Positions 1-51,473 of a stretch of DNA of 64,000 nucleotides are shown one piece after another. The notes beneath the pieces were generated by a model. The model did no database searches. It was not told the DNA's origin and worked only from the letters and a program-made list of their open reading frames with translations. The DNA is taken from positions 15,714 through 79,713 of the forward strand of contig JBATJK010000235.1 in assembly GCA_049668445.1 (NCBI GenBank), written 5' to 3'. This stretch comes from Gemmatimonadota bacterium (GTDB taxonomy: Bacteria > Gemmatimonadota > Gemmatimonadetes > Palauibacterales > Palauibacteraceae). The translations under genes were made by a program, and so were the position numbers. Numbering within the stretch: position 1 is the stretch's first letter; every line of letters begins with the position of its first letter.

Positions 1-563
1 CGGGCGGCTGGCTGGGAGGGGACGGAGACTACGACAAGTGGGACTTCGACAGCGAGTGGTTCTCCAGGATCGCCCAGATTGGTGGTGGCCCGGGCAAGGT
101 GCCGATCGAAGTCGTGGCGATGCTGAACTTCAAGGCCGGACTCGTTTTCGGCAACAATCCGTTCTATGTCGAGCGCTACTTTGTAGGTGGCACGCAAGTC
201 GGCCAGCGCGTCCGTGGCTACGAGGAAGCGACCATCACTCCGCTGGGCCACGTACCCAGGAACGCACCGGTCAACAGCCTGGCTCGTGTCGGAGAGTCGT
301 ACTTCACGACCTCGGCGGCCATCGGCATCAAGCTGACGGACAACATTTTCGCGAGTACGTTCGTGGACGCGGGGAACCTGTGGGCCAACGCCGCAGAGTT
401 CAATCCGACGGACCTCCTGGTCGGCGCCGGAGTAGGGTTGAGCTTGGTGACACCGTTTGGCCCCGTGGGCCTCGATTACGCCTACGGTTTCGACAGAAGG
501 GACGTGGTGGGAAGGCCGGACCCTGGTTGGCAGTTACATTTCCGGTTCGGGCAGTTGTTCTGA
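1..563 (+). CDS. bamA: Outer membrane protein assembly factor BamA, C-terminal beta-barrel fragment (5' end outside window)
   Basis: Open frame from position 3 running to the stop at 561-563. Translation ends ...GLDYAYGFDRRDVVGRPDPGWQLHFRFGQLF, an Omp85/BamA-type C-terminal beta-signature. Followed by skp and lpxD as in the canonical bamA-skp-lpxD-fabZ-lpxA-lpxB cluster. Confidence 0.8.
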   Translation, partial: GGWLGGDGDYDKWDFDSEWFSRIAQIGGGPGKVPIEVVAMLNFKAGLVFGNNPFYVERYFVGGTQVGQRVRGYEEATITPLGHVPRNAPVNSLARVGESYFTTSAAIGIKLTDNIFASTFVDAGNLWANAAEFNPTDLLVGAGVGLSLVTPFGPVGLDYAYGFDRRDVVGRPDPGWQLHFRFGQLF

Positions 564-618
564 TCCGGATGACATATGAGAATTCTGACTCCAAATTGAT
601 CGGAAGGAGAAGCACGAT

Positions 619-1185
619 ATGGCTCTGACACGTTGGTTCGCCCTGGCCGCAGTTGCCCTGGCGTTCGGTGCGGAAAACGCGCAGGCGCAGGGGAATCCGG
701 CCGCAGGCTCGCCGGTCGTATACGTGCGCGGTCAGGTGATTCTGCAAGCTGCCCCCGGTGCCGCAGAAGCAGCGCGCACTTTCGAACGTGAACTGGCGGA
801 CATGCGCACGCAGCTCCAGGAGCAGGCCGCCGTCGTGGACTCGATGCTGCAGGACTATCAGCGCCAGGAGGTACTCCTGAGCCCTCAGGCCAAGGAACAG
901 AAGCAGCAGGAGATTCTGAACCTGCGCAACCAGTTGCAGCAGCGGCAGGGGGAGATGGACACCCAGGCGCAGCAACGGCAGCAGGAGCTTCTTGGCCCCA
1001 TCCTGGAGCAGGTCGGCGCCGTGATCGAGACTCTACGCTCGGAGGGCAACTACTCGATCGTGCTCGACGCGTCGAAGGAAGGGCTGGTGGCAGCCGACAC
1101 CACGCTCGACATTACTGACGCCGTTCTCGCCAGGCTCGGAGTTGAGCCTCCACCGCCTGCCCCGGCGGGTGGTGCGACTCCGTAG
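619..1185 (+). CDS. skp: OmpH/Skp periplasmic chaperone
   Basis: 188 aa with signal peptide ([23 protein letters not shown]), a Q/E-rich coiled-coil body and a Pro/Ala-rich tail. GGAAGGAG RBS 8 nt upstream. Sits between bamA and lpxD. Confidence 0.75.
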
Positions 1186-1204
1186 CAGTAGTGATAGAAG
1201 CAGA

Positions 1205-1237
1205 GCTGTGGGAGGGTGCGGCGGCCCCTCCCACAGC
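1205..1237 (+). promoter_or_regulatory. Perfect 12-bp GC-rich stem-loop (gctgtgggaggg-9nt-ccctcccacagc) in the skp-lpxD spacer; possible attenuator or partial terminator
   Basis: Read directly from the sequence. Stem1 1205-1216, loop 1217-1225, stem2 1226-1237. No clean T-tract follows (tcgttctcc), so termination would be partial at best. Confidence 0.4.
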
Positions 1238-1294
1238 TCGTTCTCCAACCTCGCATGTCCTGTTGCAGGTGGGCAGCCGGCGGGGGAAAGTCAT

Positions 1295-2319
1295 ATGACC
1301 GCATTTACCGTGCAGCAACTGGCGGAGCTCGTGGCCGGCGAGGTCGAGGGCGACGCATCCCGCAGGGTTGAGGGTGTCGCCTCCGTGGACCGGGCGGGTC
1401 CAACGGACCTGACGTTCGTCGTCGACGAACGGTACGCGCAGCGGTTGGGGGCACGGTCGGTGGGAGCCTGCCTGGTCGCCCCTGGCATGCATCTGGAGGC
1501 CAACGGTACCTCGTACATCAGGGTCGAGAGTCCTGAGCTGGCCTTCAGCAAGCTTCTGGGTGTATTCCATCCCGAGCACCGGCCGGCCCCGGGGGTGCAC
1601 CCCACGGCGATCGTCGGACGGGGCACGCGAATCGGCGCCGGTGCTTCGATCGGGCCGTACGTGACGATCGGCGACAATACGGCGATCGGAAGCGGTACGC
1701 TCGTCGGCCCACACACGCACATCGACGACGACGTGGTCATCGGCAACGATTGTCGGATCGGCCCCGGGTGCACGATCCTGCATGATACCGCGGTGGGCAA
1801 CCGAGTTCGAATCTACACCGGCGTGCGGCTGGGAGTGGACGGCTTTGGCTATACGCCTGGAGCCGACGGACTGACCCGGATTCCCCAGGTCGGTCGGTGC
1901 ATCGTTCACGACGATGTCGAGATCGGTGCCAACTGTACGGTGGACCGTGGCGCACTGGGCGACACGGTGATCGGCCAGGGAACCAAGATCGACAACCTGG
2001 TACACGTGGGACACAACGTGAGGGTCGAGGATAACTGTATCATCGTTGCGCAGGCGGGAATCGCGGGAAGCGTCGATATCGGGGCCGGGACGCATATCGG
2101 TGGTCAGGTAGGCGTAGCGGGCCACCTCACCATCGGCGCGGGGGCTCGAATCGCAGGCCAGGCTGGCGTCTTCGGAGACGTTCCGGCCGGTGCAACCTAC
2201 TCAGGCTATCCCGCCCGACCGCACCGTGAGTCGCTGCGAGCCAGCGCCCTCACTTTGCGTCTCCCGGAGCTGTTTCGCCGGCTGGTCCGCCTGGAGCGTC
2301 GACTCGACGGGGAGGGCGA

Positions 2320-2323
<4 letters not shown>
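1295..2323 (+). CDS. lpxD: UDP-3-O-(3-hydroxyacyl)glucosamine N-acyltransferase
   Basis: ATG at 1295 preceded by GGGGGAAAG. N-terminal LpxD domain plus long hexapeptide left-handed beta-helix repeats ([22 protein letters not shown]...). The larger ORF from 1142 is an N-terminal over-extension. Confidence 0.9.
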
Positions 2324-36413: not shown

Positions 36414-37145
36414 TTAGAGCTCGAAATCGAGCCCCAGATACATCTTGCGGGCTTCCGGATCGTCAACGAGGGTTTGAGCCGGTCCCTCGATATGAATCTG
36501 GCCGTTGAACATCAGGTAGGCCCGGTCCGTGATCGAGAGAGTCTCGCGCACGTTGTGGTCCGTGATCAGCACGCCGAGGCCACGTTCCCTGAGCTCTGCG
36601 ACGATGCGCTGGATGTCATCCACCGCAATGGGGTCAACGCCGGCGAATGGCTCGTCGAGCAGCATGAACTTGGGGCGAGTGACCAGGGCCCGTGTGATCT
36701 CGAGTCTGCGTCGCTCACCACCTGACAACGAATCCGCCTTGCTCTTCCGCAGGTGGCCGATCGACAACTCGCCGAGCAGCTCGTCCAACCGGCTCTGACG
36801 CTCCGCGCGCGTCATGTCGAGCGTCTGCAGAATGGCCATGACATTCTGCTCGACCGTGAGACGCCGGAAGATCGAGGGCTCCTGGGAGAGGTAGCCGATA
36901 CCAGCTCGGGCACGGCGATACATGGGGACCCTGGTCAGTTCCTGCTGGTCGAGGTACACCCGGCCCGCGTTTGCGCCGAGCAATCCCACGATCATGTAGA
37001 AGGTGGTGGTCTTCCCCGCCCCGTTGGGTCCAAGCAACCCTACGATTTCACCCTGGTGGACCTCGAGGTCGACACCATCCACCACACGCCGTTTGCCGAA
37101 CGCCTTCACCAGCCCCTCGGCCCTCAAGACGCTCCTGGTGCTCAA
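36414..37145 (-). CDS. lptB: LPS export ABC transporter ATP-binding protein LptB
   Basis: Walker [10 protein letters not shown], signature [11 protein letters not shown], Walker B LLDEP. 243 aa. Adjacent to lptA/lptC and rpoN. Confidence 0.9.
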
Positions 37146-38509
37146 CCGCCTTCTCCTTCCGTTGAGGGCTCGAGGTAGATCCCTATGGCATCCCTGGCGA
37201 TCACCTCGGACGGCTCCCCGTCCTCGAACAGCACCTCGATCCGGTTCCCGAGCAGGTAGTTACGGGATGGCTCCTCGGACCGAATGGAATCACGCACGGA
37301 GGCGTAGAACGACCTCGCGCTGCCGAGGGCCATGATACGTTCGGGCTTGGGGTTCGACTCCGCCGGTGCGAGAAGTGAGTCGGCGGGAGCGGGACTGAAG
37401 AAGGCCCGGATCGTGTCCCCCGTGAGCCAGTTCGAACCGGGATCGAGGTCCTTGGCCGCCTCGACCAATGTCTCTCCAGGTATGTGCGGCACGGTCTCCA
37501 CGGAAGAGGCATCTCCCACCGAGGCGATGGAATCGATCCGGCCTGCCGTCAGGAAAAACTCGATCGAGTCACCCGCGAGTTGAAAGCTACCCGAGACAGC
37601 GATCGACCGTCCCTCGCCGAATGCCCACAAGCGCTCGACTTCACCTCCGCTGAACGCGGCCGTCACCAGATCGGACTGGAGCTCGAAGTCCTCGCCGGTC
37701 GCCGCCGCCTCACCGAACGACTCTACCTCTCGAAGCTCGTCGTCGGCGAAGCGAGCCACGACGCTGTCCCCCGTGAGCTCGAATCCCTCCCCCCGAATGA
37801 TCGGGCGCCCGTAAAGGACTCCTACCCCGCTCGCATCGAAGCGCGCACTCTCGGCGGTCGCGTCCAGGTCCGACCTGTGGATCTCGACGTTCCCGCGCGC
37901 GAATGCCTGCTCTTCTCCCTGGAATTCAGCCTCGTCGGCGTCCACGAGGAAGGGCTCCGTCCCCGGCCCGCCGGTCGGCAACTCCATGTGCGGCCTTCCG
38001 GTGGCGATCGTGCGGTTTCCCTGAAACGGAGTGCGCATGAAGTCGACCCGCGGCCCCTCCAGCGTCGCACCGGATCGCAGGCGCTCGAGCCGCACATCAC
38101 CCACCGCGATGACACGGTCGGTCAATCCGTAGTATGTCACCGTGTCCGCATCCAGCACCCGCGTCGTGTCCCTGTAGCGAACACTCCCGATCATCCGGGC
38201 TTCAGAGCGGTGTTCCAGGTGCACCGCGCTATCTCCGGTCATGGAAGCATCGCCACACTGGCCGATGACCAGCCCACCACCAAGGTGCATGGCATAACGG
38301 CCCTCGGAACCGGGGATCGCCAGCATGTTGCTTCTGGGCTGATCAGCGGACCCGGACGCCGCGACCACCCGGACCCTGAGCTGGCAGCTTGGAGCGCCCT
38401 GCGCCTCGGCCGACCCGGGAGCTGCCAGCGCCGCCAGAATGACGAACGCGGAGCCGGCACAGAGAGAACGCATGGACGTGAAACCCGTTGGCTGCAGGCT
38501 CGTGGTCAT
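37142..38509 (-). CDS. lptA: LptA/OstA-family periplasmic LPS transport protein (unusually long, ~440-455 aa)
   Basis: Signal peptide ([24 protein letters not shown]; internal ATG at 38473 is an alternative start). Repeated OstA-like beta-jellyroll segments. Its stop overlaps the lptB start, and ATGA overlaps the lptC stop at 38509. Confidence 0.72.
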
Positions 38510-39102
38510 TCAGGCAGCGTGCGCCGGCCAGCGGTGGGGTCTCCTTCCGACACGAAGCTGGGATTGAGGCTCTGAACGTTCTCGAGCTGCGCGTCGCTGA
38601 CGAAACTGGCCCCCCTCATCTCCAGACCTGGCCGGTACAATACGAAAGCCGTGTCCCCGTAGAGAGAATCCGCCGCCGCGACGTAACGAAGCCTCTCGGT
38701 CACCAGGCGCTTGGACCCCACGGCCTCGGTGACCTCGACCCCGCCTCTGACCTCGACGTCGCCCGTTTCGAACTGGTACTCACCCTCCCGCCCGGTCAGC
38801 ACCCCCTCTTCGAGTCCCGTACTGCCGTAGAACGTAATGACCAGATTGCGCAACTCGAGCAGGCCCTCCTCCTGGAAACTGAAGGCCGTGTCTGCCACCA
38901 GTATCCCATTCCGCACGCCTGCTCTGGTGAGGTTCATCTCGACCCCGACCAGCACCTGATCGGCCTCGAGACCCAGCAACGTGTCCGAGGCCAAGGGCTT
39001 CTGGCTCTCCTTCTCGCAGCCGCCCATTGCCGGAAGACAGATCAGAACGAGGGCAGCCCCGCTCAACCTGGCCCTGGCGGGCCGACTCCATGGCCTGCTC
39101 AC
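38506..39102 (-). CDS. lptC: LptC-like periplasmic LPS transport protein (lipoprotein form)
   Basis: 198 aa. Lipobox LVLICLPAMGGC. LptC-like beta-jellyroll. ATGA overlap with the kdsD stop. Confidence 0.68.
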   Translation of the reverse strand: MSRPWSRPARARLSGAALVLICLPAMGGCEKESQKPLASDTLLGLEADQVLVGVEMNLTRAGVRNGILVADTAFSFQEEGLLELRNLVITFYGSTGLEEGVLTGREGEYQFETGDVEVRGGVEVTEAVGSKRLVTERLRYVAAADSLYGDTAFVLYRPGLEMRGASFVSDAQLENVQSLNPSFVSEGDPTAGRRTLPE

Positions 39103-40665: not shown

Positions 40666-43165
<2,500 letters not shown>

Positions 43166-43361
43166 TCACTTTCGGGTGTATATGGCGTTGCCCCGGCAAA
43201 GCTGGTCCTGGATGGGGAACACGGCTTCAGGAGAAGCGTCGACGCACGGTTTCTGGCCGGAGGCAGAGGCGACCGCGAGGGGCCGAAAGCGGATGCGTGA
43301 CGACGGTAAATTCACGCTCCGTAAACTAATCCGTGCCGGAAGGCGCTGTCAAAGGGTCCGC

Positions 43362-44852
43362 TCAGAGATCCCCCGGGAACCTGAAGATGGCATAGCCTCT
43401 CGCATCGCCCGCGTCGGGATCCCATGCAACGCCCCCTTCGAGAACCCAGAATCGAAGCCCTGCCACGACGTTGACTCGCCAGTCGGCCGACTGCCCCTCC
43501 GCCCAGGCTCGCCCGGTACCCACCCGGGCGAAGACCCCCGGGGCCCCCAGCATACCGGCCGTCAACGCTTCGATCGGAATGGCGTACCCGACGTGCCCGT
43601 ACACCACGCGCGGTCCCCGGAACGCCATCACATCGAAGGTCGGAAGGGTCGCGCGACCGCCGAAGCCGGTCCATCTCTGTCCGGGGAGCGAGCCCGCCAG
43701 ATCACCTCTGACCAGAGCGAAGAGATCCAGCTCGTGGCTCCCGAAGCCAGGCGTAAGCCATCGAGCCGTCACCTCGCCGAGGAGATACGAGAAGTCACCG
43801 GCCAGGGTGGAATCCGCTCCCTCAAGGAGGACCTTCCCCACCAGCAGTCCGTTCTCGCCGGTGCTTCGATCCGCGGAGACGGACAGTGCGGCACTCCACG
43901 CGCTGCCGTCATCGATCGGCGGGTTGTCCCGCACCGTGTCCGACCCGAACAACGTGAAGTGATCCCCTGCCCTTCGACTCCAGGCATCCTCCCATTCCAC
44001 CCGGAACATCGGAGTCCACCACCGCTCCCCACTTCCACGCAGAACGAACGCGACCCGATCGGCACCGTAGTAGTCCCTGAAGTCGTCGCCGAGGAAGAGA
44101 TAGGAGAGTGAATTGGACACGCCTCCCCGGATCCAGTCCTCGTTGGTCCGCGTGATGCGCTCGGCCTCGATACCGAATTCCACGGGACCCGGGTGCCAGA
44201 ACTGACGTACCGTGCCCTCCACCTCGCCCTGCCCGGAGCGGTACCTGCCCACCAGCTCGAGAGTCGGCTGCCACGCCCAGGTCACCGCTCGCAGCGTGAT
44301 ACCCCAGGCCGCGGTCATGGCACTCGAGCGATCGTAGGTGGGAGCCCCAAAGCCGTACAGCCCGTGCAGATCGACGACATCGGGCACGTCCACGACCGGG
44401 TGGATCTCGAAGCCTCCCCCGGATGGCATTACCGTGTAGCGCTCTGCCGGTCGCCACATCACCTCGCCATCCACCGTGGCCATTCCGGATCCGTGATAGC
44501 CACCGCTCAGGACCACGATGTCACCCGACACGTGCGCCCCCGGTCTCAGGAACAGGTCGCCGTCGACGACGTAGATGTCGCCCGCTACCGATCCGGCCAG
44601 CCGTACCTGGGCCTCGAGCACGAGAAGATCGCCGGATACCTGTCCCTCGGAAGAGACGACCGTGTCCCGTGTCCACACCTGCGCGTCCCCGCGCGCCAGG
44701 AAGTCTGCGAGCTTCGAATCGAGGTCGTTGCCTTTCCGGGGCTCGAAAGCGACGTCCTGGGCAACGAGAGGCGGTGCCAGGAGCGCCATCGCCAGGGACA
44801 GCCACAGGGCAGACCGAACCGGGCGGCGACCCGACGCTCGCAGGGCCTTCAC
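43362..44852 (-). CDS. Secreted hypothetical protein: N-terminal beta-helix-like G-D-V/I repeat region plus large C-terminal domain (possible outer-membrane / surface protein)
   Basis: GTG start at 44852 overlapping the nitroreductase stop (GTGA). Signal peptide MKALRASGRRPVRSALWLSLAMALLAPPLVAQD. Repeats SGDLLVLEAQVRLAGSVAGDIYVVDGDLFLRPGAHVSGDIVVLSGG reminiscent of bactofilin/DUF4097-type beta-helices. C-terminal ~330 aa rich in Gly/aromatic alternations. No confident family. Confidence 0.55.
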   Translation of the reverse strand: MKALRASGRRPVRSALWLSLAMALLAPPLVAQDVAFEPRKGNDLDSKLADFLARGDAQVWTRDTVVSSEGQVSGDLLVLEAQVRLAGSVAGDIYVVDGDLFLRPGAHVSGDIVVLSGGYHGSGMATVDGEVMWRPAERYTVMPSGGGFEIHPVVDVPDVVDLHGLYGFGAPTYDRSSAMTAAWGITLRAVTWAWQPTLELVGRYRSGQGEVEGTVRQFWHPGPVEFGIEAERITRTNEDWIRGGVSNSLSYLFLGDDFRDYYGADRVAFVLRGSGERWWTPMFRVEWEDAWSRRAGDHFTLFGSDTVRDNPPIDDGSAWSAALSVSADRSTGENGLLVGKVLLEGADSTLAGDFSYLLGEVTARWLTPGFGSHELDLFALVRGDLAGSLPGQRWTGFGGRATLPTFDVMAFRGPRVVYGHVGYAIPIEALTAGMLGAPGVFARVGTGRAWAEGQSADWRVNVVAGLRFWVLEGGVAWDPDAGDARGYAIFRFPGDL

Positions 44853-45397
44853 TGTTCCCCGCCCCCACCGGTGGCGTTCCAACGATCCCACGCAATGCTC
44901 TCGTCCTCGGATCGGCGGGCCGCCAGGCGCTGGAAACCATCGGGGTACCCGAGTGCCAGCAGGGTCACGACCGGCACATCGGCCGGAATGCCCACGGCCT
45001 CCCGTACCGCTCCCTCACGAAATCCCGTGATCCAGGCGGTGGCGAGGCTCATGTCCGCCGCCCCCAGGACCATCGCTTCCGTGGCAGCGGCCAGGTCGAT
45101 CGGATGGCTCGGCCGACCACTTCCGGCGATGTTGGAATGAACCCTCGCGCATCCGACGATCAGGGCGGGAGCCGTGCGGATCAGGTCACCCTGGAACACC
45201 GCCCGAGCGATCTGGTGGCGCGTCAGAGCGTCCTGGACCACCACGAATCGCCACGGCTGGTCTTCGCGGGCCGATGGCGCGCAGCGCGCGCACTCCAGCA
45301 CCCGGAGAAGGATCTCCGGTGGTATGCGTCGATCGGCGAACCGGCGCACGGATTGCCGGTTGCGGGACAGGTTGAGTACACGGGAAACGGCGCTCAC
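44849..45397 (-). CDS. Nitroreductase-family protein
   Basis: 182 aa. RSVRRFADRRIPPEILLRVLECARCAPSAREDQPWRFVVV is a typical nitroreductase N-terminus. Confidence 0.8.
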   Translation of the reverse strand: MSAVSRVLNLSRNRQSVRRFADRRIPPEILLRVLECARCAPSAREDQPWRFVVVQDALTRHQIARAVFQGDLIRTAPALIVGCARVHSNIAGSGRPSHPIDLAAATEAMVLGAADMSLATAWITGFREGAVREAVGIPADVPVVTLLALGYPDGFQRLAARRSEDESIAWDRWNATGGGGEQ

Positions 45398-47543: not shown

Positions 47544-47954
47544 TCAGGCCTCGCGACCGACCCCGAGCAGGCGGAGCGCCAGGTAGGCCGCGTTCCGCGA
47601 GTTGTCGATGCCGACCGCGGCCACAGGGACGCCGGGAGGCATCTGAACGATGGACAGAAGGGCGTCAAGACCCCCGAGCGTGCCTGCCGAGATCGGAACT
47701 CCAATCACGGGTAGCCGCGTGTGTGCGGCGACCACGCCCGGGAGCGCCGCGGACAGACCCGCTCCACAGATGATGGTCCCAAAGCCCTCCGCCTCGGCCG
47801 AAGTCGCCACCTCAGCCGTACGAACCGGGTCCCGATGGGCGCTGCTCACGACCACCTCGACCTCCACGCCAGCCTCGGCGAGCACGTCGACTCCCTTCTG
47901 CATCACGGGTCGGTCGGATTCAGACCCCATCATGACGAGCACTCGTCCACCCAT
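47544..47954 (-). CDS. purE: 5-(carboxyamino)imidazole ribonucleotide mutase
   Basis: VLVMMGSESDRPVM...VVSSAHRDP...IICGAGLSAALPGVVAAHTRLPVIGVP matches PurE. ATG at 47954-47952 overlaps the upstream stop by 1 nt. Confidence 0.85.
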   Translation of the reverse strand: MGGRVLVMMGSESDRPVMQKGVDVLAEAGVEVEVVVSSAHRDPVRTAEVATSAEAEGFGTIICGAGLSAALPGVVAAHTRLPVIGVPISAGTLGGLDALLSIVQMPPGVPVAAVGIDNSRNAAYLALRLLGVGREA

Positions 47955-49072
47955 CAGACACCTCTCCTGTCCAGGCAAACCGCACAACCACAATACCAAT
48001 CCAGGTCGTCTCGGACCGAGGAGTAGTCCTGGTATCTGGGCACGGCCTTGAAGCCCGCTTCTTCAATGAATCGTACCAGCATCGGACGGGGCATGATGAA
48101 GTCCGTCCCCGTAGCCGACACCACGTTCTCCTCCATCATCAGTGAGCCGAAGTCATTGCACCCGAAGTGCAGGGCCACCTGCGCCACCTTCGGCCCCTGG
48201 GTGACGTAGCTCACCTGGAGGTTGCGAACATTGTCAATCACCAGGCGCGAGATCGCCACGGTCTTCAGGTACTCGGCTGCTGTCGCCTCCGGCGTGCCGT
48301 CCATCTCCGTACCGTCTGACTGGAGAGTCCACGGAATGAACGCGGTGAAGCCACCGGTCTCCCGCTGCAGATCGCGCACCCGGATCATGTGCTCGACCCT
48401 GTCCTCCCGGCTCTCCCCTGCCCCGAACATCATCGTCGCCGAACTCAGCAAACCCCGGCCGTGCACCGCCCGGTGGATATCCAGCCACCGTCCAGTATCG
48501 ATCTTTTTCTTCGCGATGCGATCCCGCACACCGTCCACCAGTATCTCCGCACCGGCCCCCGGTACCGAGTCGAGTCCGGCGTCCATCAATTCGCCGACGA
48601 CCGTATCCACGTCCAGCTTGTGGACTCGAGCGATGATGTCGAGCTCGGACGCCGAGAACCCGTGCACGTGGATGGGGTGATGCGTCTTGATGTAGTCGAG
48701 CAGACCCGTGTAGTAGTCCAGTTTCAGATACGGATTGTGCCCGCCCTGCATGAGGATCTGTACCGCGCCGATCGCTTTCGCTTCATCGATTTTGGCCCCG
48801 ATCTGCTCGTTCGTAAGGACATAACCCTCTTCGTGACCCGGTCGTCGATAGAAGGCGCAGAACGAGCAGTCCGTGACACACACGTTGGTATAATTGATGT
48901 TGCGGTCCGCGATGTACGAGACAACCCCACCCGGCACAGCCGCCCTGGCCCGCTCACGGGCCATGGCCCCCAGTTCCAGCAGCGGCCGATCGTAAAGGGA
49001 AGCGTACTCGGCCCGTTCCGCGGCATCCACCGGTTCAAGGGCGGTCGACGGACCGCTCACACCCGTGGTCAT
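47954..49072 (-). CDS. Radical SAM enzyme of the MqnC/MqnE (CofH-like) family, futalosine menaquinone pathway
   Basis: CVTDCSFCAF (CxxxCxxC). 372 aa. Strong family resemblance to cyclic dehypoxanthinyl futalosine synthase / aminofutalosine synthase. Which of the two it is cannot be decided by eye. Confidence 0.78.
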   Translation of the reverse strand: MTTGVSGPSTALEPVDAAERAEYASLYDRPLLELGAMARERARAAVPGGVVSYIADRNINYTNVCVTDCSFCAFYRRPGHEEGYVLTNEQIGAKIDEAKAIGAVQILMQGGHNPYLKLDYYTGLLDYIKTHHPIHVHGFSASELDIIARVHKLDVDTVVGELMDAGLDSVPGAGAEILVDGVRDRIAKKKIDTGRWLDIHRAVHGRGLLSSATMMFGAGESREDRVEHMIRVRDLQRETGGFTAFIPWTLQSDGTEMDGTPEATAAEYLKTVAISRLVIDNVRNLQVSYVTQGPKVAQVALHFGCNDFGSLMMEENVVSATGTDFIMPRPMLVRFIEEAGFKAVPRYQDYSSVRDDLDWYCGCAVCLDRRGV

Positions 49073-50220
49073 ACGGCCGCCGGCTCCCCGACCGCGTTGT
49101 AGAGAGAATCACGCTCGACGGGCGTCTTACCGGCATCCCGGATAAGCCTCACGATCTCGTCGAGGTCGAGTCCGATGGGGGTATCGGCTCCAGCCGTGTG
49201 CGTGATTTTCTCGAGCACCACCGTGCCTTCCAGATCGTCGACTCCGAACGAAAGTGCGATCTGGGAGACCTTGGTGGTCACCATGATCCAGTGCGTCTTG
49301 ATGTGCGGAACGTTGTCCAGGAGAATGCGGCCTACCGCCAGGGCTTTCAGATCGTCCAGCCCGCCCGTCCGGTTCCCCTCCAGTCCCATCTCGCGTCCCA
49401 GGGCCGTGTTGTCAGGATGCCAGGCCAGCGGAATGAAAGTGCTGAAACCCCCGGTCTCATCCTGCAGGTCGCGCAACATGAGCATGTGGTCGACCCGGTC
49501 GGCCGACGACTCGACATGACCGTAAAGAAGCGTGCAGTTCGTCGGAATCGACAGTTCGTGGGCTTCCCGGTGCACCTGAAGCCACTCTTCCGCGGCCAGT
49601 TTCCTGTCCGCAATCGTCGAACGAACCGCGGGGCTGAACACTTCCGCACCCCCGCCAGGCATGGCGTCGAGCCCGGCGTCCTTCAACTCGCGGATCACAT
49701 CCTTCGTCGTCACTCCCTCGATACGGGCCAGGTGAGCGATCTCGACCGCGGTCAGGGCCTTTACGTGCACGTGCGGGTGTCGCTCCTTCAGCCCCCTGAC
49801 CATGTCCGTGTAGTAGGACAGCGGCAGTTTCGGATGCAGCCCACCCACGATATGGAACTCCCGCGTCGGGGAGTGCCGGGCCGCATCGGCTTCCGCGTAG
49901 ACCTCTTCAAGGCTCATGGTGTATGCGTCCTCAGCCACCGGACGCACTCCATATGAGCAGAACACGCAGACCTTGTTGAGGATGCAGACGTTGGTGGGGT
50001 TGATGTGCTGGTTGGCGACATAATACACCCGGTCCCCGTTCAGGCGCCGGTTCACCAGATCAGCCATGCTGCCGACCGCAAGGAGGTCGTCCGTCTCGAA
50101 CAGCGCGATCGCATCCGCGCGAGAAATCCGTTCGCCGGCCTCGACCTTCTCCGCGATCGAGATCAACTCCGGTGCCTGTGGCCTGACGCTCAACTCACCT
50201 TCGATCCGGGGGTAGATCAC
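49069..50220 (-). CDS. Radical SAM enzyme of the MqnC/MqnE (CofH-like) family, second paralog
   Basis: 383 aa. Cys cluster CILNKVCVFCSY. Homologous along its length to the adjacent gene. ATGA overlaps with both the fabF stop (50217-50220) and the downstream paralog (49069-49072). Confidence 0.78.
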   Translation of the reverse strand: MIYPRIEGELSVRPQAPELISIAEKVEAGERISRADAIALFETDDLLAVGSMADLVNRRLNGDRVYYVANQHINPTNVCILNKVCVFCSYGVRPVAEDAYTMSLEEVYAEADAARHSPTREFHIVGGLHPKLPLSYYTDMVRGLKERHPHVHVKALTAVEIAHLARIEGVTTKDVIRELKDAGLDAMPGGGAEVFSPAVRSTIADRKLAAEEWLQVHREAHELSIPTNCTLLYGHVESSADRVDHMLMLRDLQDETGGFSTFIPLAWHPDNTALGREMGLEGNRTGGLDDLKALAVGRILLDNVPHIKTHWIMVTTKVSQIALSFGVDDLEGTVVLEKITHTAGADTPIGLDLDEIVRLIRDAGKTPVERDSLYNAVGEPAAV

Positions 50221-51473
50221 GATCCCTCCCAGGCCCGAACGGCCAGGGACACGTTGTGACCTCCGAAACCGAACGAGTTACTGAGTGCGGCGCGGACAGG
50301 CCCCTCGGTCGGGCCGTCGACACCATAGTTCAAATCGCACTCCGGATCGGGCGTCTCGTAGTTAATCGTCGGAGGGATCAGACCACGCTCGCATACGAGC
50401 AGCGAAACTCCGGCCTCAATGGCCCCCGCGGCCCCCAGCGTGTGTCCCGTCATGGACTTCGTGGAGCCGACGACGATCTCCCTCGCCCGGTCCCCCAGGA
50501 CAGCCTTGATTGCGGCCGTCTCAGAAGCGTCGTTGGCCGGTGTAGATGTGCCATGGGCGTTGATGTAGTCCACATCCGCCGCCTGCAACCCGGCGTCCTT
50601 CATGGCGAGGCGCATGGCCATCTGCGCTCCGGCGCCTCCAGGCGCCGGAGAAGTCATGTGATAGGCGTCCGCGGTCTGACCGAATCCCGCGATTTCTCCC
50701 AGGATGGTCGCGCCACGGGCCACCGCGTGCTCCATCGCCTCCAGGACGAGGATTCCTGCCCCTTCACCCAGCACGAATCCGTCGCGTGTCGCATCGAACG
50801 GCCGGGATGCGGTTTCGGGCGAATCGTTTCGAGCGGACAGGGCCTTCATGGACGCGAAGCCGGCGATACACAGAGGCGTGACGGTCGCTTCGGTGCCGCC
50901 CGTGATCATCAGGTCACTCTCACCCGTGCGGATGGACCGGAACGCCGCCCCCACCGCGTGACCGCTCGACGCGCACGCCGACACGGTGGCGTAGTTCGGC
51001 CCCTGGGCGCCGTACTTCATCGAGATCATGCCCGCGGCCATGTCGCCGATGAACATGGGGATGAAGAACGGAGAAACCCGGCCGGGGCCCTGACTCAACA
51101 GCTTCGCGTGCTGAGTTTCCATCGTCGTGAGCCCACCGATACCGCTGCCCACGATGACGCCGAATCGCTCGGGGGAAACGGAGTCGACGGCAGACTCGAT
51201 ATCCGCCTGCTCCGCGGCTTGATGGGCGGCGCCCATCGCCAGCTGCAGGAAGCGGTCGGCCCTCCGAACCTCCTTGCGGTCCATGTACTGCTCGGGGTCG
51301 AAGTCCTTGACCTCGCACGCGAACCGGACGGACTGATCGGAGGCGTCGAACTGCGTGATCGGCGCCCCACCGGAGCGACCCTCGATCAGCGCATCCCACG
51401 TCCCCTCGACATCAAGCCCAACCGGCGTGACAAGACCGAGGCCCGTGACGACCACGCGCCGTTGTTCCGACAT
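50217..51473 (-). CDS. fabF: 3-oxoacyl-ACP synthase II
   Basis: RRVVVTGLGLVTPVG, active-site C (ATVSACASSGHAVG), and His-His (HGTSTPANDASE...GHTLGAAG). 418 aa. Confidence 0.95.
   Translation of the reverse strand: MSEQRRVVVTGLGLVTPVGLDVEGTWDALIEGRSGGAPITQFDASDQSVRFACEVKDFDPEQYMDRKEVRRADRFLQLAMGAAHQAAEQADIESAVDSVSPERFGVIVGSGIGGLTTMETQHAKLLSQGPGRVSPFFIPMFIGDMAAGMISMKYGAQGPNYATVSACASSGHAVGAAFRSIRTGESDLMITGGTEATVTPLCIAGFASMKALSARNDSPETASRPFDATRDGFVLGEGAGILVLEAMEHAVARGATILGEIAGFGQTADAYHMTSPAPGGAGAQMAMRLAMKDAGLQAADVDYINAHGTSTPANDASETAAIKAVLGDRAREIVVGSTKSMTGHTLGAAGAIEAGVSLLVCERGLIPPTINYETPDPECDLNYGVDGPTEGPVRAALSNSFGFGGHNVSLAVRAWEGS

What the first reader, a model, noticed from the sequence alone, without database searches (positions are those of the whole stretch)
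43362..44852. Secreted ~500-aa hypothetical with beta-helix-like GDV/I repeats, coupled to a nitroreductase
A signal-peptide protein has an N-terminal region of G-D-(I/V)-x-V repeats (bactofilin/DUF4097-like beta-helix) and a large C-terminal Gly/aromatic-rich domain that could be a beta-barrel. It has no recognisable family. Its GTG start overlaps the stop of a cytoplasmic nitroreductase (GTGA), and it lies just upstream of pyrG-kds-lpt envelope genes. It is a candidate surface or outer-membrane protein of unknown function.
Basis: partly seen in the sequence, partly recalled or inferred. Interest (0 to 1): 0.5.

Follow-up and report, generated by a model that had tools for sequence, protein, structure and literature searches.

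The report
Omp85 barrel with beta-helix head
This gene encodes an outer-membrane protein found throughout the phylum Gemmatimonadota: a divergent relative of the BamA/TamA (Omp85) membrane-assembly barrels in which the usual periplasmic POTRA domains are replaced by a short bactofilin-like beta-helix, an architecture not listed among the described Omp85 subfamilies and of untested function.

Summary
Window 43362-44852 (-) encodes a 496-aa protein with a signal peptide, GD(I/L/V)xV repeats and a Gly/aromatic-rich C-terminal part. Its GTG start overlaps the nitroreductase stop (GTGA).

Homology is also supported by sequence, but only stepwise. This clade matches a Glassbacteria sister clade with the same architecture (hhalign 99.9%), which Pfam recognises as Omp85. 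That clade matches canonical Gemmatimonadota BamA (91.6%). Direct comparisons to BamA or TamA are not significant.

This clade has no POTRA domain and has lost both lid-lock residues: loop-6 TLRGY has become TLPTF, and the strand-13 acidic residue is gone. A canonical BamA lies at window 3-560, so this gene is an extra paralogue.

In 80 species loci, 79 labelled Gemmatimonadota or unclassified, the gene sits between xerD and kdsB/pyrG. The upstream nitroreductase is lineage-specific. Function is inferred: a periplasm-facing accessory factor in outer-membrane biogenesis. Rating: new variant of a known kind, moderate interest.

The parts
43362..44852 (-). Complete gene 'X' (496 aa plus stop): a POTRA-less Omp85-family outer-membrane protein with an N-terminal beta-helix.
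   Evidence: ORF and sequence. Full-length homologues. AF2 model with pLDDT 88.5 and pTM 0.73.
44757..44852 (-). Signal peptide, residues 1-32 (MKALRASGRRPVRSALWLSLAMALLAPPLVAQ). It is SPase-I type with no lipobox Cys.
   Evidence: Sequence and hydropathy. The 'AQ|E/D' end is conserved across alignment A1. The model shows helix 12-24 at low pLDDT. No dedicated predictor was run.
44397..44756 (-). N-terminal domain, residues 33-152: a short helix (43-53), then a right-handed triangular beta-helix of about 3.5-4 turns carrying the GD(I/L/V)xV repeats, then a beta-hairpin. It is inferred to be periplasmic.
43365..44375 (-). Omp85-type transmembrane beta-barrel, residues 160-496: 15 regular strands plus an irregular, highly conserved strand-1 segment (160-179).
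43611..43691 (-). Loop 6 equivalent, residues 388-414 (SLPGQRWTGFGGRATLPTFDVMAFRGP). It is the most conserved element. R393 is invariant family-wide. TLPTF occupies the place of the Omp85 (V/I/L)RG(Y/F) motif.
   Evidence: Conservation 2.58 bits. Column counts over 291 sequences. It aligns with Glassbacteria-clade LPFQRGYTLG--NTLRGY and with BamA ...GG....LRGY. It is in register with E. coli BamA MPFYENFYAGGSSTVRGF (low probability).
44073..44144 (-). Loop 3, residues 237-260 (NEDWIRGGVSNSLSYLFLGDDFRD), with two short helices. It is the second most conserved element; W240 and D257 are invariant and N247 is nearly invariant.
   Evidence: The region from the strand-1 segment through loop 4, which includes this loop, gives sub-threshold Pfam DUF5686 matches in family members.
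43503..43538 (-). Strand 13, residues 439-450 (GVFARVGTGRAW). This is the position of the Omp85 (F/G)xDxG wall motif. Only the Gly (G447) is kept, and the Asp position is G445 (Ala in most relatives).
44849..44852 (-). GTGA start/stop overlap with the upstream nitroreductase gene.
   Evidence: Overlaps of 1-4 nt are also seen in relatives.
44849..45397 (-). Upstream nitroreductase-family gene (182 aa). It is a lineage-specific neighbour, not a conserved partner.
   Evidence: PF00881 E 2e-21. It is replaced by a GATase or is absent in other Gemmatimonadota.
43160..43361 (-). Conserved intergenic region between X and pyrG. It contains a promoter-like CCTTTGACA (43355-43347), then ATTAgTTTAC, then a roughly 150-nt leader with conserved hairpins and a GAAAGTGAGA ribosome-binding site. 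It marks the 3' boundary of the X transcription unit.
   Evidence: Alignment A4 of 10 species, 82% mean column identity. Consensus fold. No Rfam family matched.

Best explanation
X is an outer-membrane protein of the Omp85 (BamA/TamA/Sam50) superfamily. A Sec signal peptide takes it to the periplasm. The C-terminal ~335 residues form a 16-stranded Omp85-type barrel in the outer membrane. The N-terminal ~120 residues, which directly precede strand 1, form a short helix followed by a bactofilin-like right-handed beta-helix that hangs in the periplasm where BamA and TamA carry POTRA domains.

The genome has a canonical BamA (window 3-560), so X is an additional paralogue that is conserved across Gemmatimonadota.

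Inferred mechanism: the two long 'extracellular' loops L3 and L6 are the most conserved parts and probably fold into or over the lumen, as L6 does in BamA, which would close the pore. The beta-helix would be the periplasmic docking module for a conserved partner or substrate, binding through its open end or edges much as POTRA binds by beta-augmentation. On this reading X is an accessory outer-membrane biogenesis factor (insertase, translocase or docking site), not a porin and not a cytoskeletal protein. This clade has replaced both lid-lock residues (L6 Arg to Pro, strand-13 Asp/Glu to Gly/Ala), so its loop-6 mechanics must differ from BamA.

Supported by computation here: the predicted fold, the homology, the domain order, the motif changes, the conservation pattern and the synteny. 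Inferred: the topology of the N-domain, the closed lumen and any biogenesis activity.
For: Fold:
- AF2 pLDDT 88.5.
- Foldseek gives the same ranking, E 2e-10 to TamA.

Sequence homology:
- The query matches the Glassbacteria protein P0253 at E 8e-23. P0253 passes the Pfam Omp85 gathering score, 27.5 against 24.
- Most of P0253's relatives are PF01103-positive, and two carry the NCBI name 'BamA/TamA family outer membrane protein'.
- hhalign A1 vs A3: 99.9%, E 2e-34, over 409 columns including the beta-helix.
- hhalign A3 vs canonical BamA barrels: 91.6%, E 8e-7. The alignment covers the RDTRD/GGD..F.K segment, L6 LRGY and strand-13 F.DAG.

Paralogue status: a canonical BamA C-terminus with VRGY and FVDAG motifs, followed by skp and lpxD, lies at window 3-2320.

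Conservation:
- L6, L3, strand 1 and the beta-helix score 2.2-2.6 bits. Periplasmic turns T1-T4 score 0.9-1.3 bits.
- Long loops fall on one side and short turns on the other, as in outer-membrane proteins.
- The N-domain is too conserved for a surface-exposed passenger.

Precedent: Omp85 proteins with non-POTRA N-terminal domains are known (PMC4104836). The PlpD N-domain is periplasmic (PMC11116518).

Core-gene behaviour: the gene holds the same position in 80 species loci.
Against: - No direct sequence or profile match of this clade to BamA or TamA was found. Pfam PF01103 gives no hit at E<=1. hhalign probabilities against E. coli TamA, E. coli BamA and phylum BamA are below 1%. phmmer found no match better than E 0.8, around 2 bits or less.
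- Three features usually taken as defining functional Omp85 insertases and translocases are absent: POTRA, the L6 RG(Y/F) motif and the strand-13 Asp. The scaffold may therefore have been repurposed.
- Model coordinates could not be inspected. The position of the beta-helix, the lumen occupancy and the strand 1-16 seam are all inferred.
- Strand 1 is irregular in the DSSP output.
- No partner gene is evident. The conserved neighbours are housekeeping genes, and pyrG has its own promoter.
- There is no experimental information on any family member, and no paper combines Omp85 with bactofilin.
Confidence: 0.55

Rival explanations
1. Repurposed Omp85 scaffold. The barrel is only a membrane anchor, or a gated or passive channel, and the beta-helix is a structural periplasmic module, for example for homo-oligomerisation or for tethering the outer membrane to a periplasmic structure. 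There is no insertase or translocase activity. This would resemble the current view of PlpD.
For: POTRA and both lid-lock residues are lost in this clade. The position of the lid-lock Arg varies across the wider family: P, R, Y, N, E, H and others. PlpD shows that the Omp85 scaffold was reused for other functions and forms dimers (PMC11116518). Bactofilin-type helices associate end to end (general knowledge).
Against: L6, L3 and strand 1 are the most conserved elements, which is the pattern of working Omp85 machines, not of passive anchors. R393, P390, Q392 and G398 in L6 are invariant or nearly so across 291 sequences. An N-terminal helix seems to pack on the beta-helix (pLDDT about 92), which might block one polymerisation end. 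That is inferred, because coordinates were not seen.
Confidence: 0.22
2. A minimal type-V-like self-exporter, in effect a fused two-partner system. The Omp85 barrel translocates its own N-terminal beta-helix to the cell surface, where it acts as an adhesin or surface antigen.
Against: The helix is only about 4 turns. There is no POTRA domain to recognise a passenger. The linker between the helix domain and strand 1 is under 10 residues. The N-domain is highly conserved across the phylum (2.24 bits), unlike surface-exposed passengers. The best geometric fit is bactofilin (1.4 A against about 4 A). The N-domain of PlpD, formerly thought to be exported, is in fact periplasmic.
Confidence: 0.08
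3. An LPS- or lipid-trafficking component. X would be the outer-membrane end of a periplasm-spanning bridge, either Lpt (the unusual 455-aa LptA-like protein encoded nearby) or a TamB/AsmA-like protein, with the beta-helix as the end-on docking site.
For: X is invariably placed next to kdsB/pyrG-kdsA-kdsC-kdsD-lptC-(455 aa)-lptB and downstream of fab genes, ispF and dedA in 80 species loci. TamA-TamB provides a precedent for an Omp85 protein paired with a beta-rich bridge (general knowledge).
Against: The synteny lies within one phylum and may be inherited gene order. A conserved promoter and leader separate X from pyrG. The Glassbacteria orthologue has a different neighbourhood. The beta-helix has a closed core and no lipid groove (inferred from the bactofilin fit). 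No TamB- or LptD-like gene was seen among the ten large window ORFs scanned.
Confidence: 0.1
4. A cytoplasmic, polymer-forming bactofilin cytoskeletal protein, as some NCBI records name members of this family.
For: The NCBI name 'polymer-forming cytoskeletal protein' is given to P0014, P0099, P0112 and P0117. There is a weak Pfam Bactofilin match.
Against: The protein has a signal peptide. Two thirds of it is an Omp85-type membrane barrel. The Bactofilin score is below the gathering threshold, 19.4 against 27.9.
Confidence: 0.01

Closest known systems
TamA / BamA / Sam50 (Omp85 family proper, Pfam PF01103)
   Different: There are no POTRA domains. L6 RG(Y/F) has become PT(F). The strand-13 Asp is lost. 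Direct profile similarity is not significant. A canonical BamA exists elsewhere in the same genome, so X is not the BamA orthologue.
Glassbacteria-clade 'BamA/TamA family outer membrane protein' (P0253, P0308, P0313 and relatives)
   Same: The architecture is the same: signal peptide, beta-helix, barrel, about 500 aa. hhalign gives 99.9% over 409 columns.
   Different: These proteins keep TLRGY in L6 and an acidic residue (YETG) on strand 13, and they pass the Pfam Omp85 threshold. Their genomic neighbourhood differs.
Omp85 subfamilies with alternative or no N-terminal domains (noNterm, WD40-Omp85, Metallo-Omp85, PlpD), as in Heinz & Lithgow 2014 and the Leptospira noNterm Omp85s
   Same: The principle is the same: an Omp85 barrel whose POTRA domains are missing or accompanied by another N-terminal domain, present in addition to BamA, with unknown function (PMC4104836; PMC11358297).
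   Different: None of the ten described subfamilies has a beta-helix or bactofilin-like N-domain. The Leptospira noNterm proteins keep the (L/M)RG(W/Y) motif in ECL6, whereas X has lost it.
Bactofilin (PF04519; T. thermophilus 6ria, C. crescentus BacA 2n3d)
   Same: Right-handed triangular beta-helix: 67-68 residues superpose at 1.4-2.0 A with 21-27% identity. Pfam matches are weak.
   Different: X is secreted and fused to a membrane barrel. The helix has only about 4 turns. Scores are below the Pfam threshold. Polymer formation is untested.
Pfam DUF5686
   Same: The strand-1 to loop-4 part of the barrel in 13 of 64 family members gives weak matches to DUF5686 profile positions ~320-490.
   Different: All matches are below the gathering score (26 bits or less against 39.2), and the query itself gives none. 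The function of DUF5686 is unknown, and only one paper mentions it.

Membership tests
Omp85 superfamily | C-terminal 16-stranded transmembrane beta-barrel with the Omp85 fold | tested here: met
Omp85 superfamily | Direct sequence match to the Omp85 profile (PF01103) or to BamA/TamA | tested here: not met
   No PF01103 hit at E<=1. hhalign against E. coli TamA, E. coli BamA and Gemmatimonadota BamA gives probabilities below 1%. phmmer found no match better than E 0.8. PDB sequence search found none.
Omp85 superfamily | Homology demonstrable through intermediate sequences | tested here: met
   A1 vs A3 99.9%, E 2e-34. A3 members pass the PF01103 gathering score. A3 vs canonical BamA 91.6%, E 8e-7. 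Three of 64 members of the wider family hit PF01103, best E 5e-12.
Omp85 superfamily | One or more periplasmic POTRA domains N-terminal to the barrel | tested here: not met
Omp85 superfamily | Loop 6 (V/I/L/M)RG(Y/F/W) signature at the loop tip | tested here: not met
   The equivalent pentad is TLPTF. P404 is invariant in the 52-sequence clade alignment. Over 291 family sequences position 404 is P 211, R 36, other 44, and position 405 is T 210, G 25. The loop itself and its GG..T(L) core are retained.
Omp85 superfamily | Strand-13 (F/G)xDxG wall motif, the lid-lock partner of the L6 Arg | tested here: not met
   The sequence is RVGTG, RAAxG in the consensus. The Gly (G447) is kept in 278 of 291 sequences. 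In the MAFFT column counts the Asp position is A, R, G, V or T as the five commonest residues. An acidic residue (YETG) appears only when the Glassbacteria clade is placed by hhalign.
Omp85 superfamily | Weak or offset strand 1-16 seam (lateral gate) and insertase or translocase activity | not testable with these tools
DSSP shows only isolated bridges in 160-179. Activity needs experiments.
BamA orthologue | It is the genome's canonical BamA (five POTRA domains, bamA-skp-lpxD context) | tested here: not met
   A canonical BamA C-terminus (PF01103 E 7e-17, with VRGY and FVDAG) followed by skp and lpxD lies at window 3-2320. X lies 43 kb away in a different context.
Bactofilin (PF04519) | Profile match above the Pfam gathering score | tested here: not met
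   19.4 bits against 27.9. Nineteen of 64 relatives match at E<0.1, best E 4e-4.
Bactofilin (PF04519) | Right-handed triangular beta-helix fold | tested here: met
Bactofilin (PF04519) | Cytoplasmic, self-polymerising cytoskeletal protein | tested here: not met
   The location criterion fails: the protein has a signal peptide and is fused to an outer-membrane barrel. Polymerisation itself is not testable here.
Type V secretion (autotransporter / two-partner / PlpD-like) | Beta-helical passenger plus a 12-stranded barrel with a pore-spanning linker (Va), or a POTRA-bearing Omp85 transporter (Vb, Vd) | tested here: not met
DUF5686 (PF18939) | Profile match above the gathering score (39.2 bits) | tested here: not met
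   The query gives no hit. Relatives reach 26 bits or less.
   Of 73 loci, the upstream gene is the nitroreductase in 46 and a GATase in 19; xerD is the next detected gene upstream in 6, and 2 are other (examples).

The most novel reading that the evidence does not exclude
X could define a POTRA-independent class of Omp85 machine. In this reading a bactofilin-like beta-helix replaces POTRA as the periplasmic coupling module. It would dock end-on, as bactofilin subunits stack, to a periplasm-spanning beta-rich bridge. Candidates are a TamB/AsmA-like protein or the unusually long 455-aa LptA-like protein encoded in the adjacent lpt cluster. Together they would form a Gemmatimonadota-specific outer-membrane lipid, LPS or protein insertion device that works without the canonical L6 lid lock.
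Probability: 0.1. Interest if true: 0.7.

Novelty: new variant of a known kind. Interest (0 to 1): 0.45.

Why it matters
Omp85 proteins are the core of outer-membrane biogenesis in diderm bacteria and organelles. POTRA domains and the L6/strand-13 lid lock are treated as their hallmarks.

This family appears in every Gemmatimonadota species locus that was recovered. It keeps the barrel and a highly conserved loop 6, but it swaps POTRA for a bactofilin-type beta-helix. In most of its members both lid-lock residues are replaced. The Glassbacteria sister clade still has them, which gives a natural before-and-after comparison for what those elements are needed for.

The work also corrects annotation. 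Members of this clade are named 'hypothetical' or, misleadingly, 'polymer-forming cytoskeletal protein'.

The practical impact is limited until a function is shown. Precedents for alternative N-domains on Omp85 barrels already exist (WD40, metallophosphatase, patatin, none).

Tried and rejected
- Direct family assignment failed. Pfam and NCBIfam scans of the protein gave only a sub-threshold Bactofilin hit. Profile searches of PDB sequences with A1 and A2 gave only noise: TbpB, carbonic anhydrase, RecA and a weak bactofilin match.
- phmmer of E. coli BamA and TamA against 291 family proteins found no match better than E 0.8.
- hhalign of the family against single E. coli TamA and BamA sequences, against the window's own BamA fragment, and against a 27-sequence Gemmatimonadota BamA profile gave probabilities below 1%.
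- The alignment (X loop 3 against BamA T4/L5) is rejected as spurious. It contradicts the register fixed by the significant comparisons.
- The afdb50 fold library was not available.
A1 was used instead.
- Model coordinates are not exposed. Domain placement, lumen occupancy and the strand 1-16 seam could not be measured.
- The idea of a functional nitroreductase-X pair is rejected on synteny.
- The idea that X is the BamA of this genome is rejected.
- The genes flanking the Glassbacteria orthologue (169 aa, 483 aa, Metallophos) have no homologues in the window.
- No TamB-, AsmA- or LptD-like gene was found among ten large window ORFs.
- The consensus promoter/terminator scan and Rfam found nothing relevant around the gene.
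- Literature searches for Omp85 with bactofilin, Omp85 with Gemmatimonadetes, and DUF5686 found no description of this architecture.
Full report
**1. Observation**

The minus-strand ORF 43362..44852 encodes 496 aa. The GTG start and the TGA stop of the upstream nitroreductase gene (44849..45397) overlap in the four bases GTGA at 44849-44852. A G-rich ribosome-binding stretch precedes it.

The N-terminus is MKALRASGRRPVRSALWLSLAMALLAPPLVAQ|DV, a typical SPase-I signal peptide without a lipobox Cys. This is read from the sequence and its hydropathy; no dedicated predictor was available.

Residues 73-133 carry GDLLV, GDIYV, GDLFL, GDIVV and GEVMW. The rest of the protein is rich in Gly (13.3% overall) and aromatic residues (W 3.8%). 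Every descriptive element of the finding is therefore present.

The ORF is strongly conserved:
- 246 full-length homologues of about 490-510 aa.
- 590 clusters at 50% identity with E<=1e-3.
- Relatives found by tblastn in 80 species-representative genomes.

**2. Structure**

AlphaFold2 was run on a 52-sequence alignment (A1). It gave mean pLDDT 88.5 and pTM 0.73. The model has these parts:
- a short helix (43-53);
- about eleven 3-4-residue strands (58-134), i.e. a beta-helix of about 3.5-4 turns;
- a hairpin (139-152);
- a large barrel from about residue 160 to 490.

- the best non-Omp85 barrel, a porin, reaches only 13.9.

Foldseek agrees. Its top 41 hits are all Omp85 proteins, starting at E 2e-10.

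**3. Homology at sequence level**

Direct tests fail:
- Pfam gives only a sub-threshold Bactofilin hit (19.4 bits against 27.9), and NCBIfam gives nothing.
- Profile searches of PDB sequences give nothing.
- phmmer with E. coli BamA and TamA finds no match better than E 0.8.
- hhalign against E. coli TamA, E. coli BamA and a Gemmatimonadota BamA profile gives probabilities below 1%.

Stepwise tests succeed:
- In a 64-member alignment of the wider family (A2), 3 members hit PF01103 (best E 5e-12), 13 hit DUF5686 weakly and 19 hit Bactofilin weakly.
- P0253 from Candidatus Glassbacteria matches the query at E 8e-23 over residues 42-427. It passes the Omp85 gathering score, 27.5 against 24.
- Most relatives of P0253 are PF01103-positive, and two carry the NCBI name 'BamA/TamA family outer membrane protein'.
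- Profile-profile comparison of the query's clade (A1) with this clade (A3) gives 99.9%, E 2e-34, over 409 columns, including the beta-helix.
- A3 against 27 canonical Gemmatimonadota BamA barrels (A6) gives 91.6%, E 8e-7, over 210 columns.

The A3-A6 alignment puts the classical Omp85 landmarks in register: RDTRD...G, GGD..F.K, loop-6 LRGY and strand-13 F.DAG. This fixes the strand numbering of X:
- L5 and strand 10 at AGDFSY (351-356);
- L6 at 388-414, between strands 11 and 12;
- strand 13 at 439-450.

**4. What differs from canonical Omp85**

(a) There is no POTRA domain.

(b) Loop 6 is retained and is the most conserved element, at 2.58 bits. R393 is invariant in 291 sequences, and P390, Q392 and G398 are nearly so. 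The signature pentad, however, reads TLPTF where the Glassbacteria clade has TLRGY and BamA has (V/L)RG(Y/F). E. coli BamA MPFYENFYAGGSSTVRGF aligns in register. Across the family the Arg position is P in 211 sequences, R in 36 and something else in 44. The Gly position is T in 210.

(c) On strand 13 only the Gly of (F/G)xDxG survives, as G447. The Asp position is G445, and Ala in most relatives. The Glassbacteria clade keeps an acidic residue there (YETG aligned to F.DAG).

Both partners of the 'lid lock' described for Omp85 proteins (PMC4490367 abstract; PMC11358297) are therefore lost together in this clade.

(d) Loop 3 (NEDWIRGGVSNSLSYLFLGDDFRD, 2.55 bits) and the strand-1 segment (VDLHGLYGFGAPTYDR, 2.54 bits) are also highly conserved. 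Periplasmic turns T1-T4 are the least conserved, at 0.9-1.3 bits.

**5. Genomic context**

The same window starts with the C-terminal 185 aa of a canonical BamA (PF01103 E 7e-17). It carries QRVRGYEE and FVDAGNLW and ends in FRFGQLF. It is followed by skp and lpxD. X is therefore an additional paralogue, not the BamA of this organism.

Around X the gene order on the minus strand is:
ispF - dedA (VTT) - xerD - nitroreductase - X - pyrG - kdsA - kdsC - kdsD - lptC - 455-aa protein - lptB - rpoN - GT2.

In 80 species loci the frame IspF-DedA-XerD-[..]-X-[KdsB]-PyrG-...-LptC-...-LptB is maintained. All are labelled Gemmatimonadota or unclassified, apart from one MAG labelled Akkermansiaceae. Counts, over 73 loci each:
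- Between xerD and X: the nitroreductase in 46 loci; a class-I glutamine amidotransferase in 19, mostly labelled Gemmatimonadaceae (example); no gene detected in 6; something else in 2.
- Downstream of X: kdsB in 47 loci and pyrG directly in 26.

The 206-209-nt spacer between X and pyrG is conserved in ten species, at 82% column identity. It begins 7 nt after the X stop codon with an invariant CCTTTGACA. About 17 nt further on comes ATTAnTTTAC, and then a leader of about 150 nt with conserved hairpins and a GAAAGTGAGA ribosome-binding site. pyrG thus very probably has its own promoter.

The Glassbacteria orthologue lies in an unrelated neighbourhood. Synteny therefore shows that X is a vertically inherited core gene of the phylum. 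It does not identify a functional partner, and it argues against a specific link to the nitroreductase.

**6. Mechanism**

Supported by the computations above: a secreted protein whose N-terminal bactofilin-like beta-helix directly precedes a 16-stranded Omp85-type barrel.

Inferred topology: the barrel has an even number of strands with strand 1 starting on the periplasmic side. Long, conserved loops (L3, L4, L6) fall on one face and short, variable turns on the other. The beta-helix should therefore be periplasmic, in the position of POTRA. Three observations are consistent with this:
- Full-length TamA aligns over about 70 more residues than its barrel alone (340 against 271).
- The N-domain is very highly conserved (2.24 bits).
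- The non-POTRA N-domain of PlpD is experimentally periplasmic (PMC11116518).

Inferred function: the conservation pattern (L6, L3, strand 1) is that of a working Omp85 machine with a loop-occupied lumen, not a porin. I therefore favour an accessory outer-membrane biogenesis role in which the beta-helix docks a conserved periplasmic partner or substrate. Loss of the lid lock means that loop-6 dynamics differ from BamA.

Rivals are a repurposed scaffold or tether (0.22), an LPS- or lipid-bridge terminus (0.10), a type-V-like self-exporter (0.08) and a cytoskeletal bactofilin (0.01). Their evidence is listed in the rivals section.

**7. Comparison with the known, and novelty**

Heinz & Lithgow (PMC4104836) defined ten bacterial Omp85/TpsB subfamilies, including ones with WD40, metallophosphatase, patatin or no N-terminal domain. 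None has a beta-helix. Leptospira noNterm paralogues keep the (L/M)RG(W/Y) motif in ECL6 (PMC11358297). No paper in the library combines Omp85 with bactofilin, and none describes this Gemmatimonadota protein.

Database names for this clade are 'hypothetical protein' or 'polymer-forming cytoskeletal protein'. The second is misleading.

I rate the finding a new variant of a known kind: a divergent Omp85 subfamily with a new N-terminal module and a degenerate lid lock. Interest is moderate (0.45). It is a clear, phylum-wide structural variant with a built-in natural comparison, the Glassbacteria clade that retains the lid lock. Against that, alternative N-domains on Omp85 barrels have precedents, and the function is unknown.

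Noticed in passing
window 3-560 (+), 589-1182 (+), 1142-2323 (+): The window opens with the C-terminal 185 aa of a canonical BamA (PF01103 E 7e-17, with VRGY and FVDAG motifs, ending FRFGQLF). It is followed by skp/OmpH and lpxD, the classical bamA-skp-lpxD cluster. It served as the internal control showing that X is an extra Omp85 paralogue.
   Followed up: yes
window 43160-43361 (-): The 206-209-nt X-pyrG spacer is conserved in length and sequence in ten species, at 82% column identity. It has an invariant CCTTTGACA 7 nt after the X stop, then ATTAnTTTAC (a TAnnTTT-type -10?), then a leader of about 150 nt with conserved hairpins, one of which shows compensatory changes. No Rfam family matches. 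It may be a pyrG promoter plus a regulatory leader.
   Followed up: partly
window 37142-38509 (-): A 455-aa ORF between lptC (38506-39102) and lptB (36414-37145) has no Pfam hit. Its orthologue in L001 has only a faint LptD_N/OstA hit. It occupies the position of LptA but is about 2.5 times longer, and it is conserved at that position (447-476 aa) in three related loci.
   Followed up: partly
L006 7429-8007; loci L067-L087: In loci mostly labelled Gemmatimonadaceae, the gene immediately upstream of X, overlapping its start by 7 nt in L006, is a 192-aa class-I glutamine amidotransferase (PF00117/Peptidase_C26) instead of the nitroreductase. In six loci xerD is the next detected gene upstream of X.
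   Followed up: yes
L007 9636-10562 (Glassbacteria contig): The Glassbacteria orthologue of X is followed by a Metallophos (PF00149) gene. Heinz & Lithgow describe an Omp85 subfamily with that domain fused to the barrel, so this could be a split version of that architecture. Two uncharacterised genes (169 and 483 aa) lie just upstream of it.
   Followed up: no
P0198 (963 aa, 3.5-kb Logan contig): One family member carries an N-terminal amidohydrolase domain (PF01979, residues 97-440) fused in front of the beta-helix and barrel part (495-955). It is either a real fusion or a gene-calling artefact.
   Followed up: no
L015 (CAXMRU010000224.1): A contig binned as 'Akkermansiaceae bacterium' carries X (72% identity) with the full Gemmatimonadota synteny. 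The contig is probably mis-binned.
   Followed up: no
window 47954-51473 (-): Upstream of purE/ispF are ORFs of 372, 383 and 418 aa. In the related locus L006 the corresponding position holds radical-SAM/CofH_C and VitK2_biosynth genes (futalosine-type menaquinone synthesis). The window ORFs themselves were not scanned.
   Followed up: no
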